Assembly: GCA_045593405.1 (NCBI GenBank)
Contig: JAZNWN010000015.1
Span: forward strand, 91,542-155,541
Direction: 5' to 3'
Source of the DNA: Clostridia bacterium
GTDB taxonomy: Bacteria; Bacillota; Clostridia; TANB77; CAG-508
Length of the DNA: 64,000 nucleotides
Shown here: positions 596-62,772 of the stretch, piece after piece
Position numbering within the stretch: the stretch's first letter is position 1
How the letters are laid out: the number at the start of each line of letters is the position of its first letter
Notes under the pieces: generated by a model
What the model saw: the letters and a program-made list of their open reading frames with translations, nothing else
Told to the model about the DNA's origin: nothing
Database searches by the model: none
Translations under genes and position numbers: made by a program

Positions 596-665
596 TGTAG
601 GGACGATTTTAATCGCCCGTTTTTCGAAGCATAGTCGAACAAGTTCGCCCCTACAAATTGCGCCA
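596..665. repeat. REPIN doublet TGTAGGGACGATTTTAATCGCCCG-TTTTTCGAAGCATAGT-CGAACAAGTTCGCCCCTACAAATTGCGCC
   Basis: Two inverted REPs with the CTTCGAAG-type spacer, between the SBP and permease genes. Confidence 0.7.
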
Positions 666-697
666 TAATTTTTTTCTCCAAATTCCAATTTTTAATA

Positions 698-1514
698 TTA
701 TCCAAAAAGGTGTGTTTTTAATAATATTTTTTCTAATAATGCAATTAGACCATACATTAGCGCTGCTACAATTGCAAGTATTACTATACCCGTCATTACC
801 AAATCTAGTTTAAACACTTGGCTTCCGTAGTTTATCAAATATCCGTAGTCCTGCTTTTGAAACCAAAAATTCTCCAGTTATAACACCTACCATTGATAAA
901 CCAATGTTTATTTTTAATGAATTTATAAAATTAGAAATATTGGCAGGAATTATTATTTTTGTTAATAACTGTAATTTTGTACAGTTGAATGTTTTCGCCA
1001 TTTTTATTTTTTCTTTATCAGTTTCTAAAAATCCATTTAAAATGTCTAATATTGTTACCACCAGAGATATTGCTATCGCCATTGTTACTATCGCAGAAGT
1101 TCCTGCGCCTACCCATATTATTATTACAGGGCCCAATGCAACTTTTGGCAAACTGTTTAATATTACCAAAAATGGTTCCGAAACTTTATTTAAGAACTCT
1201 GACCACCATAACGTAATTGCAATTATAATTCCAATTCCAGTTCCCAATAAAAAGCCTATTAAAGTTTCATTGCAGGTAACTTGTATGTGCATTAGCAAAT
1301 CATTAGAAGATAAGTTTATAAAAGTTTTTAAAATTTTTGAAGGCTGACTCATAATAAAGCTATCTACAAGTTCTCTATTTGCTGCAAATTCCCAAATTGC
1401 TATAAATGCTATTAATACACTTATTTGTGTAACTAAAATGCTAATTTTTTTGATACTCTTTTTTCTTAAGTACTTTTTTCTATCGTCTGAAATATTTTTC
1501 TTAGGCATGCACAT
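698..1514 (-). CDS. ABC transporter permease (NitT/TauT family); needs a +1 shift at the in-frame CGG (+ strand CCG 843-845)
   Basis: The ORF-track protein ends ...GEFLVSKAGLRIFDKLRKPSV. Skipping the C of CTA-CGG-ATA gives ...KAGL-GYLINYGSQVFKLDLVMTGIVILAIVAALMYGLIALLEKILLKTHLFG, the canonical permease C-terminus, ending at TAA 698-700. Confidence 0.7.
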
Positions 1515-2268
1515 CTAACTCCTTCCAAATGCTGTCAAAGTATTTGCTAAATTCAGGAGTTTCCCTTACATTCAAAGGATTTCTATTTTTTATATTAAAT
1601 TTTACTTCTTTAATACATTTTATAGTAGCAGGTCTTTGGGTCAGTATTGCAATTCTATCAGACATACTTATGCTTTCTGATATATCATGCGTTACCATCA
1701 CTGCTGTTATTCCTTCGTTTTTTAATATTTTATAAATATCCTTTGTAACCATTATTCTTGTTTGATAATCTAAGGCCGAGAAAGCCTCATCCAATAACAA
1801 TATTTTTGGTTTTATTGCAAGAGTCCTAATTAAAGCAACTCTTTGGCGCATTCCTCCTGATAATTGAGATGGATATTTATCTTTGAATTCATATAAATTA
1901 TATTTCTTCAAAAGTTCTTCTACATAGGCTTTGTTTTCTTCTGTTTTAAGATGTCTTATCTCCAGTCCAAACATAACATTTCTGTATATACTCCTCCATT
2001 CTAGCAGGCTATCCTTTTGTAGCATATAACCTATTTTTGGTGATATTCCTATTGTTTCTTCTCCATCTATGTAGAGCTTTCCAGATGTTTTAGGCTCTAA
2101 TCCAGCAATTATTGAAAGCAATGTAGATTTTCCACAACCACTAGGACCAATTATACATAATAACTCTCCTTCATATACAGTTAAATTTACATTTTTTAAA
2201 GCTTCAATTTCTCCGTTCTTTGCTTGATATGTTTTTGATATATTTTCTATTTTTAAAACTTCCTCCAA
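1501..2268 (-). CDS. ABC transporter ATP-binding protein (SsuB/TauB-like)
   Basis: Walker A GPSGCGKST, signature LSGGMRQR, Walker B LLLDEAFSALD. Likely TTG start at 2266-2268 with an AAGGAGG RBS 7 nt upstream. Overlaps the permease start. Confidence 0.85.
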   Translation of the reverse strand: MEEVLKIENISKTYQAKNGEIEALKNVNLTVYEGELLCIIGPSGCGKSTLLSIIAGLEPKTSGKLYIDGEETIGISPKIGYMLQKDSLLEWRSIYRNVMFGLEIRHLKTEENKAYVEELLKKYNLYEFKDKYPSQLSGGMRQRVALIRTLAIKPKILLLDEAFSALDYQTRIMVTKDIYKILKNEGITAVMVTHDISESISMSDRIAILTQRPATIKCIKEVKFNIKNRNPLNVRETPEFSKYFDSIWKELDVHA

Positions 2269-2433
2269 AATTCTTCCTCCTTTTGTATATAAACTTATCA
2301 TATTAATAGTATATTCTAGAGAATAATTTTAGGTGTCAAAAAATCCAGAGTTTTGGCTATATATTGGTTTTTTGACTTTTTTCTAAAATTAGTGTATTTA
2401 AGGTATAATCTATTTAGAAAGGAGGATTTCTCT

Positions 2434-2673
2434 ATGAAGAAATCCTCTCGGGTAATTAAAATTACCCTCTTAGCTATTATTCTTCCACTGTTCATCATGA
2501 CAGCCGTACTTACAGTATATGGTATTATCACATTTCAACCTCCTTATGGCTCTTTATTTGAGCAATTTGGAATTTGGTACATGAGAGTGTATTGCAGTCT
2601 TGCTGCAATATGCGAAGTTGTTATCTGTGGTCAGATCATAGCTAAGATCATTAAGTTGCTGAAAGCAGCTTAA
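2434..2673 (+). CDS. Small hypothetical membrane protein (80 aa)
   Basis: Strong RBS AAAGGAGG 8 nt before ATG 2434; one predicted TM helix. Contains an in-frame CGG at codon 6 (2449-2451). Confidence 0.4.
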   Translation: MKKSSRVIKITLLAIILPLFIMTAVLTVYGIITFQPPYGSLFEQFGIWYMRVYCSLAAICEVVICGQIIAKIIKLLKAA

Positions 2674-2736
2674 TGACGAGAAAAGCGGAATCCCACAAGT
2701 GTGGAGCCGCTTTTTTATGTGCAAATATCCCAAACA

Positions 2737-2768
2737 AAAAACCGACTAGGTTATCTAATCGGTTTTTA
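2737..2768. terminator. Bidirectional rho-independent terminator hairpin
   Basis: AAAACCGACTAGG...TCGGTTTTT inverted repeat flanked by A/T runs, between convergent genes. Confidence 0.5.
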
Positions 2769-2774
2769 CAATTT

Positions 2775-61246: not shown

Positions 61247-61392
61247 ATCGTGTTTGCTTTCTTTTTATTTTTTTGTCGAAAGTCATTTTCCTAAATAATC
61301 AAGAATTATTCTATAAATTATAGACTTTTCTATTTTTATATTATAAAATATTAAAATGAAAAATAGAAATAAAGAAGGAGCTTTGATATAGC

Positions 61393-61905
61393 ATGAGTGA
61401 AAAAATAGTTAATTGGATTATAGGTGTTTTTGGTAGCTTGGCAGCAATTAAATTTGGAAAAGAAATATTGGTTTTTGTAATATCTTTACTTCCAATATTA
61501 GAGCTAAGAGGAGGTCTTCTTGCAGCTTCACTTTTAGGTCTAGACCCACTTCCAAGTTATATTATTACAATGGTTGGAAATCTACTTCCTATTCCTTTTA
61601 TTCTTTGGTTTATTAATAGAATTTTGGATTGGATGAGAAAGTCTAAACATTTTTCTAAAATTGCAAATTGGCTAGATAATAAAGTTGAAAAACATAAATC
61701 AAGTATTGAAAAATATGGTTTCTGGGGATTAGTTCTATTTGTTGGAATTCCTCTTCCAGGCACAGGTGCTTGGACAGGAAGTTTAATTGCTTCTGTTTTA
61801 GAAATGGATAGAAAAAAATCTTTTGTTGCAATTATTCTTGGTGTAGTTATGGCAAGCGCCATTATGATGCTTGTATCTTTTGGAGTACTTAGAGCAATAT
61901 TTTAA
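61393..61905 (+). CDS. Putative small multidrug export protein (COG2426-like)
   Basis: 170 aa, four TM segments with LPILELRGG and IPLPGTGAWTG motifs. Confidence 0.55.
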   Translation: MSEKIVNWIIGVFGSLAAIKFGKEILVFVISLLPILELRGGLLAASLLGLDPLPSYIITMVGNLLPIPFILWFINRILDWMRKSKHFSKIANWLDNKVEKHKSSIEKYGFWGLVLFVGIPLPGTGAWTGSLIASVLEMDRKKSFVAIILGVVMASAIMMLVSFGVLRAIF

Positions 61906-61920
61906 TTAAAACACTTACAA

Positions 61921-61947
61921 TGTAGGGGCGCAAGCATGCGCCCCTAC
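61921..61947. repeat. Singlet REP TGTAGGGGCGCAAGCATGCGCCCCTACA
   Basis: Perfect hairpin with family termini, between convergent genes. Confidence 0.7.
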
Positions 61948-61970
61948 ACCTTAAAAATAATTATACATTT

Positions 61971-62720
61971 TTATATTTCTAACCCTACCGGACAATGGTC
62001 ACTTCCCATTATTTCTGGGAAAATAACAGCATCCTTTATATTTTTTGCAAATCTATCTGACACAATAAAATAATCTATTCTCCACCCTATATTTTTTTCT
62101 CTTGCATGTCCCATATATGACCACCAAGTATATGCATTTTCTTTATCTGGATACATTTTTCTAAATGTGTCTGTGAATCCATTGTCTAATAATTCTGTCA
62201 TTTTATTTCTTTCTTCATCTGTAAAACCTGCATTTTTTCTATTTGTTTTCGGATTTTTTAAGTCAATTTCTTTGTGTGCTACATTTAAGTCTCCACATAA
62301 AATTACAGGCTTTACTTTATCTAACTCTTTTAAATACTTTCTAAATGCATCTTCCCATTGCATTCTATAGTCTAACCTTGCAAGTTCTCTTCCCGAATTT
62401 GGAGTATATGAGTTTACTAAATAAAAATCTTTAAATTCTAATGTTATTACTCTTCCTTCTTGGTCATGTTCTTCTATTCCAATACCATATGTAACATTTT
62501 TAGGTTTTATTTTCGTAAAAATAGCTGTTCCAGAATACCCTTTTCTTTCAGCATAATTAAAATATATTTCATATCCATCAAAATTCACTTCTAATTGTCC
62601 ATCTTGCATTTTTGTTTCCTGTAAACAAAATACATCTGCATCAAATTCTTTAAATATATTTTCAAAATCTTTTTTAAATATTGCTCTTAATCCATTTACA
62701 TTCCATGAAATTAATTTCAT
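61971..62720 (-). CDS. xth: Exodeoxyribonuclease III
   Basis: MKLISWNVNGLRA..., CLQETK, DLNVAHKEIDLKNP, and C-terminal SDHCPV motifs of the ExoIII/APE1 family. Confidence 0.9.
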   Translation of the reverse strand: MKLISWNVNGLRAIFKKDFENIFKEFDADVFCLQETKMQDGQLEVNFDGYEIYFNYAERKGYSGTAIFTKIKPKNVTYGIGIEEHDQEGRVITLEFKDFYLVNSYTPNSGRELARLDYRMQWEDAFRKYLKELDKVKPVILCGDLNVAHKEIDLKNPKTNRKNAGFTDEERNKMTELLDNGFTDTFRKMYPDKENAYTWWSYMGHAREKNIGWRIDYFIVSDRFAKNIKDAVIFPEIMGSDHCPVGLEI

Positions 62721-62743
62721 TATTTGCTCCTTACTAATATATT

Positions 62744-62772
62744 CGGGCAGGCACAGAGGCCTGCCCCTAAAA
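62744..62772. repeat. REP-like hairpin CGGGCAGGCACAGAGGCCTGCCCCTAAAATT
   Basis: GC stem with a CCCCTA terminus. Confidence 0.5.

What the first reader, a model, noticed from the sequence alone, without database searches (positions are those of the whole stretch)
596..62772. Very high density of one family of GC-rich palindromic intergenic elements (more than 25 copies in 64 kb)
At least 22 loci, several with two or three hairpins, carry elements with conserved termini TGTAGGGG / CCCCTACA(AATTNYGCC) and a variable GC-rich stem. The stem falls into recognisable subtypes: GGGGCGATTTTAATCGCCCC, GGGTCGCACYCCTGGGCGACCC, GGGGCAGGGTTCCACCCCTGCCC and others. Many loci are inverted doublets separated by a CTTCGAAG-containing spacer, which is REPIN architecture.

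Loci: 596, 3107, 6033, 8166, 15010, 20581, 25059, 27821, 29755, 30301, 32685, 33427, 36048, 36879, 37690, 40453, 43902, 45747, 60413, 61921, 62744.

They sit almost exclusively just downstream of stop codons or between convergent genes, where they probably double as terminators or mRNA stabilisers. They bracket the foreign-looking islets at 29755-31233 and 36048-36908. The density is about one element per 2.5 kb. Subtype compensatory variation implies selection on structure. The stable-stem GC composition contrasts sharply with the ~28% GC genome.
Basis: seen in the sequence. Interest (0 to 1): 0.7.

Follow-up and report, generated by a model that had tools for sequence, protein, structure and literature searches.

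The report
REP/REPIN elements with their RAYT transposase
The GC-rich hairpins scattered between the genes are REP/REPIN mobile elements, and the small transposase gene that moves such elements (a RAYT) lies in the same window; this is a known kind of system, but the papers I read do not report it from a very AT-rich gut Clostridia genome.

Summary
TGTAGGGG occurs 20 times against 0.4 expected. About 30 tagged GC-rich hairpins lie at 21 intergenic loci.

Each unit reads T-GTAG, then a GGG…CCC hairpin, then G. That is the canonical form of a GTAG-tagged REP. Eight loci are inverted doublets, and the six folded as single-stranded DNA form long REPIN hairpins.

ORF 29780-30232 (-) encodes a 150-aa HUH/Y1 transposase. 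Its best solved-structure matches by sequence and by fold are E. coli TnpAREP (4ER8). It is flanked by inverted copies of the commonest REP.

Relatives 67-83% identical in uncultured gut Clostridia carry the same REP on both sides. More distant relatives carry co-varying stems. Related species (~85% DNA identity) lack the 1.6-kb islet that holds the RAYT. Their orthologous gaps hold other REP types, or none.

The terminator idea is not supported. Most units have no T tract, two loci sit between divergent genes, and ordinary terminators lie beside them.

Verdict: a new member of a known kind, closest to RAYT subclass 2.4. Interest is moderate.

The parts
29780..30232 (-). RAYT / TnpAREP gene: a 150-aa HUH-Y1 transposase. 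HUH motif is H80-L-H82. Catalytic Tyr is Y136. The E. coli GTAG-contact residues are conserved as W115, Q116, E121, H122, R125 and N140.
   Evidence: Pfam Y1_Tnp scores 28.5 bits against a cutoff of 23. The best NCBIfam match is REP_Tyr_transpos at 63.5 bits, against 17 bits for IS200. The best PDB sequence hit is 4ER8, E. coli TnpAREP. The AF2 model has pLDDT 83, and its best fold match is 4ER8 at E 3.6e-8, TM 0.69. Invariant residues are listed in alignment A1. JGI names homologues 'REP element-mobilizing transposase RayT'.
29755..29778 (+). REP (A type, TGTAGGGGCGATTTTAATCGCCCG) flanking the 3' end of the RAYT gene
   Evidence: the same REP flanks RAYT genes in relatives
30301..30325 (-). 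REP (A type, foot mutated to GGCGATT…CGCCT) upstream of the RAYT gene, inverted relative to 29755-29778. It is preceded by a conserved GTAGAGTAAA.
   Evidence: the same upstream context occurs in L001/L006
29695..31330 (.). Variable 1.6-kb islet between alaS and serS. It holds REP-RAYT-REP, hairpins and terminators, and ORF 30529-31233 (234 aa, 36% GC, no family match).
   Evidence: Alignments to L086 and L089 break at 29694 and resume at 31331/31336. Empty-site sequences are shown.
596..655 (.). REPIN doublet: A unit, TTCGAAG linker, inverted B unit. Both units are slightly decayed. It is the same doublet as 33427-33486 in the opposite orientation.
3110..3135 (-). Single REP with an ATAG tag and a 22-nt hairpin, lying between ssb and rpsR
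6033..6108 (.). Double-footed unit with degenerate tags (ATAG…CTAA, 6033-6062) plus a decayed inverted unit (6083-6108) that overlaps the 3' end of ORF 6064-6729
8169..8191 (-). Single REP (GGGCGTATGATTGCGCCC)
15010..15041 (-). Decayed REP remnant
20581..20635 (.). Doublet: a decayed D-type unit plus an inverted 22-nt unit
25059..25137 (.). Doublet (C type plus an inverted GGGGCGC… type) between divergent genes
27825..27847 (-). Single A-type REP just after the alaS stop codon
32685..32776 (.). REPIN doublet (A unit, CTTCGAAG and a long linker, inverted B unit) between serS and engB
33427..33486 (.). REPIN doublet (B unit, GCACTTCGAAGAAC, inverted A unit) between the convergent genes engB and clpC
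   Evidence: folds at -20.7 kcal/mol, z -7.1
36048..36126 (.). REPIN doublet of two 22-nt units that pair with each other
   Evidence: -28.8 kcal/mol, z -8.1
36881..36907 (-). Single C-type REP (ATAG tag). Its hairpin is identical to that of 36049-36074 and inverted relative to it.
37691..37715 (-). Single REP (GGGCTGGTTTTGACCAGCCC). The orthologous site is empty in L086 and holds a different REP remnant in L089.
40452..40479 (.). 'Double-foot' REP, TGTAG-hairpin-CTACA (A type)
43902..43930 (.). Decayed double-foot REP (GTAA…CTAT)
45747..45793 (.). Decayed B-CTTCGAA-A doublet. Two G-to-A changes break the B stem.
60413..60489 (.). REPIN doublet (D unit plus inverted E unit, loop TTCCAY) between divergent genes. 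A small GTAGG…CCCTAC remnant follows at 60497-60516.
61921..61948 (.). Double-foot REP (TGTAGGGGCGCAAGCATGCGCCCCTACA) between convergent genes
   Evidence: -15.6 kcal/mol, z -7.8
62745..62770 (-). Single 22-nt REP with a degenerate TTAG tag

Best explanation
The elements are GTAG-tagged REPs, together with their inverted doublets (REPINs/BIMEs). They are non-autonomous single-strand-DNA hairpin elements. One cognate mobilising enzyme, a REP-associated tyrosine transposase (RAYT/TnpAREP, 29780-30232, minus strand), is encoded in the window between two inverted REPs, an arrangement called a 'REPtron'.

Shown here:
- The anatomy of the repeat is T-GTAG, a GGG-foot hairpin, then G.
- The doublets fold as long hairpins.
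- The stems vary with compensatory changes.
- The protein has the Y1/HUH fold with HUH, the catalytic Tyr and the GTAG-contact residues.
- RAYT and REP are associated across about 40 related loci, and RAYT and stem sequence change together.
- REPs and the RAYT islet differ between related species.

Inferred from E. coli TnpAREP and IS608 biochemistry. The RAYT probably binds the REP hairpin in single-stranded DNA, most likely on the lagging-strand template. It would read the 5' GTAG guide and cleave at the C^T of the conserved CC^TACA on the inverted copy, and at a CT in the linker. It would form a 5'-phosphotyrosine link and rejoin the strand. In that way it would excise, insert and amplify doublets.

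Other REP families in the window. The 22-nt hairpins with loops such as TTCCAY or ACYCCTGG are probably served by further RAYT paralogues outside the window. The same families lie inside and next to other RAYT genes in other organisms.

Any effect on mRNA is secondary.
For: Repeat anatomy and enrichment.

A test not biased towards structure. Sequences were picked only by GTAGGGG…CCC at the right spacing. Inner pairs 4-7 are paired in 78 of 80 cases (22-nt class) and 45 of 48 (18-nt class), against about 50% at wrong spacings.

Covariation: 93.8% of cells paired, 5 of 8 pairs changed on both sides, 0 of 500 shuffles as high, and slid controls 36-54% paired.

REPIN folding: z-scores of -3 to -8.

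RAYT identity.
- The E. coli GTAG-contact residues W94, Q95, E100, H101 and R104, plus N119 and Y115 (PMC6006769), align to W115, Q116, E121, H122, R125, N140 and Y136.

Association of RAYT with REP.
- Every full-length RAYT gene 67-83% identical (16 distinct loci, L001 and L006-L016 plus L093-L096) is flanked upstream (+) and downstream (-) by GTAG GGGCGATTTTAATCGCCC.
- Genes 52-65% identical carry other 19-nt stems.
- 39 of 87 RAYT-like genes have tagged hairpins on both sides.
- In several relatives the CTTCGAAG linker halves flank the RAYT gene. A doublet therefore looks like a REPtron that has lost its gene.

Variation between species.
- Islet 29695-31330 is absent from L086 and L089 at about 85% DNA identity.
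- About 10 orthologous gaps hold different REP types, none, or another repeat.
- RAYT genes sit in three different gene contexts.

Cleavage motif. E. coli TnpAREP cleaves GGCC^TACA (PMC3333891). Here CCCC^TACA is conserved, with T before GTAGGGG in 20 of 23 cases.

Strand bias. All 7 single units in the window and all 6 in L086, L087 and L089 have GTAG on the G-rich strand.

Residence in the lineage. The RAYT gene is 21% GC and its GC3 of 0.15 equals the host mean, so it is long resident. Decayed REP copies differ from intact ones mainly by G/C-to-A/T changes.
Against: - The protein scores below NCBIfam's curated cutoff for REP_Tyr_transpos (63.5 bits against 80).
- No activity or transposition event was observed. 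Comparisons are between species (~85% identity), not strains, so the differences could reflect old events, deletions or recombination.
- Only one RAYT is visible, and it is flanked by only one of at least five stem families. The enzyme for the other families is unknown.
- Genome-wide copy numbers of REPs and RAYTs cannot be measured from 64 kb.
- The strand bias is confounded with gene orientation, because about 85% of genes are on the same strand.
Confidence: 0.88

Rival explanations
1. The hairpins are mainly RNA-level elements: intrinsic terminators or 3' mRNA stabilisers, kept by selection for that role. On this view the transposase is incidental.
For: 19 of 21 loci lie after at least one stop codon. 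G-T pairs occur in stems, which is tolerated in RNA. The double-foot unit 40452-40479 and two others pass a lax terminator scan. REPs in E. coli are reported to stabilise mRNA and to terminate transcription (background in PMC6006769).
Against: Most units have no T run after the hairpin in either reading direction. Canonical terminators lie next to REPs. Two loci lie between divergent genes. Single units lie inside probable operons, oriented so that no U tract follows. Orthologous gaps in related species lack them or hold unrelated repeats. A dedicated Y1 transposase is flanked by them in every close relative.
Confidence: 0.15
2. The REPs are fossils. The RAYT is a domesticated single-copy gene with some other host function, and the REPs no longer move. 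Differences between species arise from deletion and recombination.
For: Several copies are decayed, at 596, 6083, 15010, 20581, 43902 and 45747. The comparisons span about 15% DNA divergence. Bertels et al. describe RAYTs as behaving like housekeeping genes (PMC5581495).
Against: Many copies are intact and identical despite a 28% GC background that should erode GC-rich neutral DNA. The same gap holds different REP families with the same GTAG…CTAC boundaries, for example serS-engB in the window against L087. RAYT genes 71-83% identical sit in different gene contexts, and one MAG has two copies with near-identical flanks (L009 and L012). The catalytic and DNA-contact residues are invariant.
Confidence: 0.2
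3. One RAYT (the one in the window) mobilises all the stem families, because it reads only TGTAG plus the GGG/CCC foot. No further RAYT paralogues are needed.
For: The tag and the three G-C foot pairs are invariant in all families, while inner pairs vary freely. Single RAYT genes in relatives are flanked by two different stems (L018, L024, L035). Doublets mix stem types.
Against: Stem sequence changes with RAYT sequence across relatives. The 22-nt C/F and D/E families are found inside or beside other RAYT genes: L026 (53% identical to the window RAYT) and L117 and L173 (RAYT-like genes whose best matches are the distant query RAYTs of L030 at 29% and L070 at 41%). Published work finds one RAYT per REP family (PMC6006769).
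Confidence: 0.25

Closest known systems
E. coli REP/BIME elements with TnpAREP (RAYT), structure 4ER8; Ton-Hoang 2012 (PMC3333891), Messing 2012 (PMC3479197)
   Same: A 5' GTAG guide lies at the foot of a GC-rich hairpin. Units form inverted pairs with short linkers. The transposase gene is flanked by inverted REPs (a REPtron). The enzyme has the HUH/Y1 fold with the same GTAG-contact residues. The CC^TACA cleavage-site motif is conserved.
   Different: The hairpins here are short and perfect (18-22 nt, 7-9 bp, no bulge), whereas E. coli has longer bulged palindromes. The protein is only 23% identical in the fold alignment and has no C-terminal extension. The host is a 28% GC member of the Clostridia. 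At least five stem families coexist in the window.
RAYT subclass 2.4 of Quentin et al. 2018 (PMC6006769), equal to Group 4 of Bertels et al. 2017 (PMC5581495)
   Same: The REPs are canonical, with three consecutive G-C pairs at the foot. 'Double-foot' REPs (GTAG…CTAC) are present. There is no extension after the core domain. REPs are inserted in frame inside RAYT genes of related loci (L026, L117, L173). The family is scattered over many phyla.
   Different: That subclass was reported as abundant in Cyanobacteria and Bacteroidetes. I could not compare sequences with its reference members. The window's own RAYT gene has no internal REP.
REPINs of Pseudomonas fluorescens SBW25 (Bertels and Rainey 2011, PMC3116915)
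   Same: Two inverted REPs form a long hairpin, and the doublet recurs as a unit: the B-CTTCGAAG-A doublet occurs four times in both orientations. The elements are associated with a RAYT.
   Different: Pseudomonas REPINs belong to RAYT Group 3 (subclass 2.5). Here many units are single or double-footed. Several doublets are heterodimers of different stems. Population-level evidence that the doublet is the replicating unit is lacking.
IS200/IS605 insertion sequences (IS608, ISDra2)
   Same: They use a Y1 HUH transposase, with fold matches at E 1e-7. They have subterminal hairpins with a 5' guide tetranucleotide. They act on single-stranded DNA on the lagging-strand template.
   Different: The NCBIfam IS200 model scores only 17 bits against a cutoff of 55. 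The gene is flanked by copies of a dispersed 25-nt repeat rather than by distinct left and right ends. The repeats far outnumber the gene.

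Membership tests
GTAG-tagged REP (Di Nocera 2013; Ton-Hoang 2012) | Conserved GT[AG]G tetranucleotide directly 5' of the hairpin foot and not base-paired | tested here: met
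   There are 23 GTAGGGG sites, 20 of them preceded by T. The tag is GTAG in about 22 units, with ATAG, TTAG or GTAA in decayed ones.
GTAG-tagged REP (Di Nocera 2013; Ton-Hoang 2012) | Short GC-rich palindrome (20-40 bp) that forms a stable hairpin, with sequence varying but pairing kept | tested here: met
   As DNA the units fold at -7.7 to -15.6 kcal/mol, z -2.7 to -7.8. 93.8% of cells are paired and 5 of 8 pairs covary.
GTAG-tagged REP (Di Nocera 2013; Ton-Hoang 2012) | High copy number, in extragenic positions | tested here: met
   About 30 units at 21 loci, all in the roughly 12% of the window outside ORFs, apart from one partial overlap. The genome-wide number cannot be measured.
REPIN (Bertels and Rainey 2011) | Two REPs in inverted orientation, close together, able to form one long hairpin | tested here: met
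   There are 8 doublets. The 6 that were tested fold as long hairpins, z -3.0 to -8.1.
REPIN (Bertels and Rainey 2011) | The doublet, not the single REP, is the replicating unit | tested here: inconclusive
   The B-CTTCGAAG-A doublet occurs four times in both orientations. There are also 7 single units and 4 double-footed units (two with intact GTAG…CTAC, two with degenerate tags). A whole genome is needed to decide.
RAYT / TnpAREP | HUH motif and a single catalytic tyrosine in a Y1 transposase fold | tested here: met
   H80 and H82 are invariant in A1 (L81 lies between them in the window protein). Y136 is invariant and aligns with Y115 of 4ER8. Pfam Y1_Tnp is above its cutoff. The best fold match is 4ER8, then IS608 and ISDra2 TnpA.
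RAYT / TnpAREP | Gene flanked by inverted copies of a dispersed REP | tested here: met
   In the window the flanks are 29755-29778 (+) and 30301-30325 (-). The same holds in every full-length relative at 67-83% identity.
RAYT / TnpAREP | Residues that contact GTAG in E. coli TnpAREP are conserved (W94, Q95, E100, H101, R104) | tested here: met
   They align to W115, Q116, E121, H122 and R125. The residue list comes from PMC6006769.
RAYT / TnpAREP | Score at or above the curated cutoff of NCBIfam NF047646 (REP_Tyr_transpos, equivalog) | tested here: not met
   The score is 63.5 bits against a cutoff of 80. It is still by far the best model, with IS200 at 17 bits. The protein is therefore not a member of that equivalog as defined. 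It is filed under the wider RAYT class on the other criteria.
RAYT / TnpAREP | Strand-specific cleavage and rejoining of REP DNA | not testable with these tools
   This needs biochemistry.
RAYT / TnpAREP | One copy, or very few, per genome | not testable with these tools
   Only 64 kb of a 241-kb contig is available. One related MAG has two copies (L009 and L012).
RAYT subclass 2.4 (Quentin 2018) | REPs with three G-C pairs at the foot, plus double-foot REPs | tested here: met
   Pairs 1-3 are G-C in all 20 sequences of the alignment. Double-foot units lie at 40452-40479 and 61921-61948.
RAYT subclass 2.4 (Quentin 2018) | REPs inserted in frame within tnpAREP genes | tested here: met
   This is seen in related loci L026, L117 and L173 at two fixed positions. 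It is not seen in the window's own gene.
RAYT subclass 2.4 (Quentin 2018) | Sequence clusters with reference members of the subclass | not tested
   The reference sequences are not held. The paper's Table S1 lists many GTAGGGG REPs under subclass 2.4.
Intrinsic (rho-independent) terminator | GC-rich hairpin followed immediately by a T/U run | tested here: not met
   Only 3 REP hairpins in 25-45 kb pass a lax scan. The 3' flanks are listed.
IS200/IS605 insertion sequence | Match to the IS200 transposase model, and distinct left and right ends that bound a multi-copy unit | tested here: not met
   NF033573 scores 17 bits against a cutoff of 55. The flanks are copies of the dispersed REP.

The most novel reading that the evidence does not exclude
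This would be the first REPIN-RAYT population described in Bacillota, living in a 28% GC genome. At least five stem families coexist in it. At least one family (loop TTCCAY) also occurs in organisms of 40-71% GC, differing by one or two compensated stem pairs, and there it lies inside and beside RAYT genes. That would mean REP-RAYT modules spread between distant lineages rather than being strictly vertically inherited. It would also mean their GC-rich hairpins are actively renewed against strong AT mutation pressure.
Probability: 0.3. Interest if true: 0.6.

Novelty: new member of a known kind. Interest (0 to 1): 0.45.

Why it matters
REP and REPIN elements and their RAYT enzymes have been studied almost entirely in Proteobacteria. 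The surveys I read list GTAG REPs in Proteobacteria, Cyanobacteria, Chloroflexi and the PVC group (PMC3733652). They mention Clostridia only for a RAYT group that has no REPs (PMC5581495, PMC6006769).

A dense, multi-family REP population next to an intact 150-aa RAYT in uncultured gut Clostridia widens the known host range.

It also offers a natural test. In a genome under strong AT pressure, GC-rich neutral DNA should decay quickly. Intact copies therefore report either recent activity or selection.

There are practical consequences as well. These repeats probably contribute to fragmented assemblies of such MAGs. They also mark variable intergenic sites and islets.

Tried and rejected
- Rfam at gathering scores and tRNA scans of the window found nothing, so the hairpins are not a known RNA family.
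- Looking up the exact RAYT protein in the assembly index failed twice. The source contig could therefore not be read beyond the window.
- A tblastn of window proteins against the RAYT loci of relatives showed no shared gene neighbourhood. The RAYT context could not be used for orthologous comparison, so I used EngB homologues instead.
- My first tag-plus-spacing test had an off-by-one error. I repeated it correctly.
- A metagenome scan with the D/E-type REP pattern was meant to find the second RAYT in AT-rich relatives. It did give two RAYT genes with that REP inside them.
- One literature search was badly framed and gave nothing useful.
- The supplementary sequences of Bertels 2017 are not held, so the RAYT group could not be assigned by sequence.
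- Pfam, NCBIfam and PHROG searches of the islet ORFs gave no credible match.
- I considered and rejected three other readings. CRISPR is excluded because there is no regular array. TIR-type MITEs are excluded because there are no terminal inverted repeats or target duplications. A family of intrinsic terminators is excluded because most units lack a T tract.

Full report

Yes. TGTAGGGG or its complement occurs 20 times in 64 kb. Dinucleotide-preserving shuffles gave 0.41 ± 0.60, with a maximum of 2. Each contains at least one GC-rich hairpin with the stated termini.

When all copies are oriented on the tag-bearing strand, they share one plan:
- an A/T-rich flank, then T, then GTAG;
- a hairpin that begins GGG and ends CCC, 18-22 nt long, with a stem of 7-9 bp and a loop of 2-8 nt;
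- then G.

A mechanical scan for this plan gives 30 hits, of which 28 are real. A looser scan for GGG…CCC hairpins gives 32 hits, against 3.5 in Markov shuffles. Four decayed units, visible by eye, were missed by the scan. The window is 23-33% GC. The units are 57-78% GC.

**2. Anatomy**

There are four arrangements:
- Single units at 3110, 8169, 15016, 27825, 36881, 37691 and 62745.
- Inverted doublets at 596, 20581, 25059, 32685, 33427, 36048, 45747 and 60413.
- 'Double-foot' units, in which one hairpin carries GTAG on one side and CTAC on the other. They lie at 40452 and 61921, with degenerate-tag versions at 6033 and 43902.
- The pair that flanks an ORF, at 29755 and 30301.

Folded as single-stranded DNA, the single units give -7.7 to -12 kcal/mol. 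Doublets fold as one long hairpin in which the two units pair with each other, for example -28.8 kcal/mol with z -8.1 for 36048-36126. That is REPIN/BIME architecture.

The CTTCGAAG spacer belongs to a single doublet family, B unit-linker-inverted A unit. This doublet occurs four times, in both orientations and in various states of decay (596, 32685, 33427, 45747).

**3. Is the structure under constraint?**

To avoid circularity I selected sequences only by the tag and the three foot pairs at a given spacing. The sources were the window and related AT-rich loci. At the two common lengths the inner pairs 4-7 are paired in 78 of 80 cases (22 nt) and 45 of 48 cases (18 nt). At other spacings the figure is about 50%.

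On the ungapped alignment of the twenty 22-nt sequences:
- 93.8% of cells pair;
- 5 of 8 pairs show changes on both sides;
- no shuffle out of 500 reaches the observed covariation;
- sliding the partner by 1-3 columns drops pairing to 36-54%.

**4. The missed feature: a RAYT gene**

ORF 29780-30232 (minus strand, 150 aa) lies between an A-type REP at 29755-29778 (+) and an inverted one at 30301-30325 (-). The evidence for its identity is as follows:
- It matches Pfam Y1_Tnp above the gathering score.
- Its best NCBIfam model is 'REP-associated tyrosine transposase' at 63.5 bits. That is below the curated cutoff of 80. The IS200 model scores only 17 bits.
- Its best solved-structure relative by sequence is 4ER8, E. 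coli TnpAREP bound to a REP hairpin.
- An AlphaFold model (pLDDT 83) has 4ER8 as its best fold match (E 3.6e-8, TM 0.69). The IS200/IS605 transposases follow.
- The HUH histidines (H80, H82) and the tyrosine that aligns with E. coli Y115 (Y136) are invariant among 21 homologues.
- The residues reported to contact GTAG in E. coli are W94, Q95, E100, H101 and R104, together with N119 (PMC6006769). They align to W115, Q116, E121, H122, R125 and N140.
- JGI already labels homologues 'REP element-mobilizing transposase RayT'.

**5. Related loci**

A scan of one genome per species found 210 relatives. The closest, at 52-78% identity, are all uncultured gut Clostridia MAGs of 25-31% GC. They come from chicken, rumen, rabbit, mouse and human samples.

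Every full-length RAYT gene 67-83% identical is flanked by GTAG GGGCGATTTTAATCGCCC, upstream in the + orientation and downstream in the - orientation. That is 16 distinct loci. Genes 52-65% identical carry other 19-nt stems, such as GGGCGATTATCAATCGCCC, GGGCGAACAGTGTTCGCCC and GGGCGACCAGTGGTCGCCC. More distant relatives in other phyla carry still other GTAG GGG… hairpins. Protein and stem therefore change together, as published for RAYTs.

In several relatives each flank reads REP, then …CTTCGAAG…, then the gene. The common doublet thus looks like a REPtron that has lost its gene.

**6. Which RAYT class?**

Bertels' Group 1, the only group reported in Clostridia (PMC5581495), equals subclass 2.1. 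That subclass has a helix-turn-helix tail and no REPs (PMC6006769). It does not fit this protein.

Subclass 2.4 (Group 4) fits on every feature I could test:
- There is no extension after the core domain.
- The REPs have three G-C pairs at the foot.
- Double-foot REPs are present.
- REPs are inserted in frame inside RAYT genes.

I found the last feature in related loci. L026 (53% identical) carries two 22-nt REPs, translated as …AVGVALLGDP… and …NGSPKTATPT…. L117 and L173 carry the TTCCAY-loop REP at the same two positions.

I could not compare sequences with reference members of the subclass, so this assignment is an inference.

**7. Evidence for turnover**

Three contigs from related species are collinear with the window over about 20 kb. 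Their EngB proteins are 91-94% identical, and their DNA is 84-88% identical.

The alignments break exactly at 29694 and resume at 31331/31336. A 1.6-kb islet is therefore absent from two of the relatives. The islet holds REP-RAYT-REP, hairpins and ORF 30529-31233. In the third relative the same place holds a REP doublet of another type plus a DUF4160/DUF2442 gene pair, in front of the same terminator.

I compared about ten orthologous gaps. None holds the same REP type in the window and in a relative. Examples:
- The serS-engB gap has an A/B doublet here and a D/E doublet in L087, with the same GTAG…CTAC boundaries and homologous flanks. L086 has only a remnant there, L089 has a different inverted repeat, and L091 has nothing.
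- The hexapeptide-transferase/KAP-NTPase gap has one REP here, is empty in L086, and holds a remnant of another type in L089.

RAYT genes 78-83% identical sit in other gene neighbourhoods. One MAG has two copies with near-identical flanks (L009 and L012).

These are comparisons between species. They show turnover but not its rate.

**8. Position, orientation and the terminator idea**

All loci are intergenic. ORFs cover about 88% of the window. Of the 21 loci, 19 follow at least one stop codon. Two (25059 and 60413) lie between divergent genes. One decayed unit overlaps the end of ORF 6064-6729.

Most units have no T run after the hairpin. In 25-45 kb only three REP hairpins pass a lax terminator scan. 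Textbook terminators lie beside REPs at 30489-30521, 36153-36184 and 36914-36938. Single units also occur inside probable operons, such as ssb-rpsR at 3110.

All 7 single units here, and all 6 in the collinear relatives, carry GTAG on the minus strand. That strand is the G-rich strand on which about 85% of genes lie. Its sequence is that of the lagging-strand template, which is where IS608-type Y1 transposases act (PMC3333891). In this orientation no U-rich tract follows the hairpin in the mRNA, so selection against termination inside operons would give the same bias. The two explanations cannot be separated with these data.

**9. Likely mechanism (inferred)**

E. coli TnpAREP needs the 5' GTAG. 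It cleaves at C^T in GGCC^TACA on the inverted REP, and at CT sites in linkers. It can then excise and rejoin single-stranded BIMEs (PMC3333891).

Here CCCC^TACA is the most conserved part of the element. T precedes GTAGGGG in 20 of 23 cases. The conserved linker contains CT.

The RAYT gene is 21% GC, with GC3 equal to the host mean. It is therefore a long-term resident of this AT-rich lineage. Its targets nevertheless stay GC-rich. Decayed copies differ from intact ones mainly by G/C-to-A/T changes. This points to renewal by copying, or to selection on the hairpin.

**10. The other stem families**

Only the A type flanks the RAYT in the window. The 22-nt C/F family lies inside the RAYT gene of L026.

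All of them are 40-71% GC. Most carry the more GC-rich variants GGGCGGGGTTCCAYCCCCGCCC. Two of these contigs have RAYT genes with this REP inside or beside them.

The window's genome therefore probably holds further RAYT paralogues outside the 64 kb. The alternative is that this RAYT reads only the tag and the foot. The fact that the family is shared with GC-rich organisms suggests transfer between lineages, but convergence is not excluded.

**11. Comparison with what is known, and verdict**

This is a REP/REPIN-RAYT system, which is a known kind. The surveys I read report GTAG REPs from Proteobacteria, Cyanobacteria, Chloroflexi and the PVC group (PMC3733652). None of the RAYT- or REPIN-centred papers in the library mentions Firmicutes. 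Nunvar 2010 does not either. The RAYT gene family itself is already annotated automatically in such MAGs.

I rate it a new member of a known kind. Interest is 0.45.

Noticed in passing
window 36127-36880: A small cassette bracketed by identical inverted C-type REPs. It has a perfect sigma-70-like promoter (36836-36808), two paralogous ORFs of 76 and 73 aa (39% identical, 41-42% GC against 28% for the genome, no family match) and a terminator at 36153-36184. Related contigs have one such ORF (L086, L088) or none (L089).
   Followed up: partly
window 30529-31233 (-): A 234-aa ORF with 36% GC and no credible Pfam, NCBIfam or PHROG match. It shares the variable islet with the RAYT. L087 and L088 have a DUF4160/DUF2442 gene pair at that place, in front of the same terminator.
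   Followed up: partly
L089 9860-10000, 6544-6680 and 16650-16840: A different repeat, a long imperfect inverted repeat rich in GTGTGA/GGTGTG, fills the very intergenic gaps that hold REPs in the window (serS-engB, HIT-alaS and the phosphoribosyltransferase gap). These gaps seem to be general landing sites for small elements.
   Followed up: no
L026 5163-5188 and 5343-5368; L117 4883-4908; L173 (reverse strand) about 57-85 and 225-255: REPs are inserted in frame at two fixed positions inside RAYT genes. They add about 9-10 residues each, for example AVGVALLGDP and VGAGFHPRP, without breaking the reading frame.
   Followed up: partly
window 27861-29630 (-): The alanyl-tRNA synthetase is only 589 aa, here and in three related contigs. 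It has the catalytic and second additional domains but no C-terminal part.
   Followed up: no
window 1-64000: No Rfam family reaches its gathering score and there are no tRNA genes in 64 kb. In particular, no T-box is detected in front of alaS or serS.
   Followed up: no
L097-L216 (metagenome contigs): The TTCCAY-loop REP family of the window occurs in at least 120 contigs of 40-71% GC, many from termite and human gut samples. Tagged hairpins are common in them (GTAGGGG/CCCCTAC at 0.62 per kb).
   Followed up: partly
window 6064-6729 (-) and 6083-6108: The last codons of this ORF run into a decayed REP unit, so its C-terminus may be REP-derived.
   Followed up: no
L091 (12.3 kb; EngB 85% identical): This related contig has no tagged hairpin at all, and its serS-engB gap is 18 bp. 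Some relatives may lack the REP population.
   Followed up: no
L088 6070-6375: The engB-clpC gap holds a palindromic element of about 300 bp that is unrelated to REPs.
   Followed up: no
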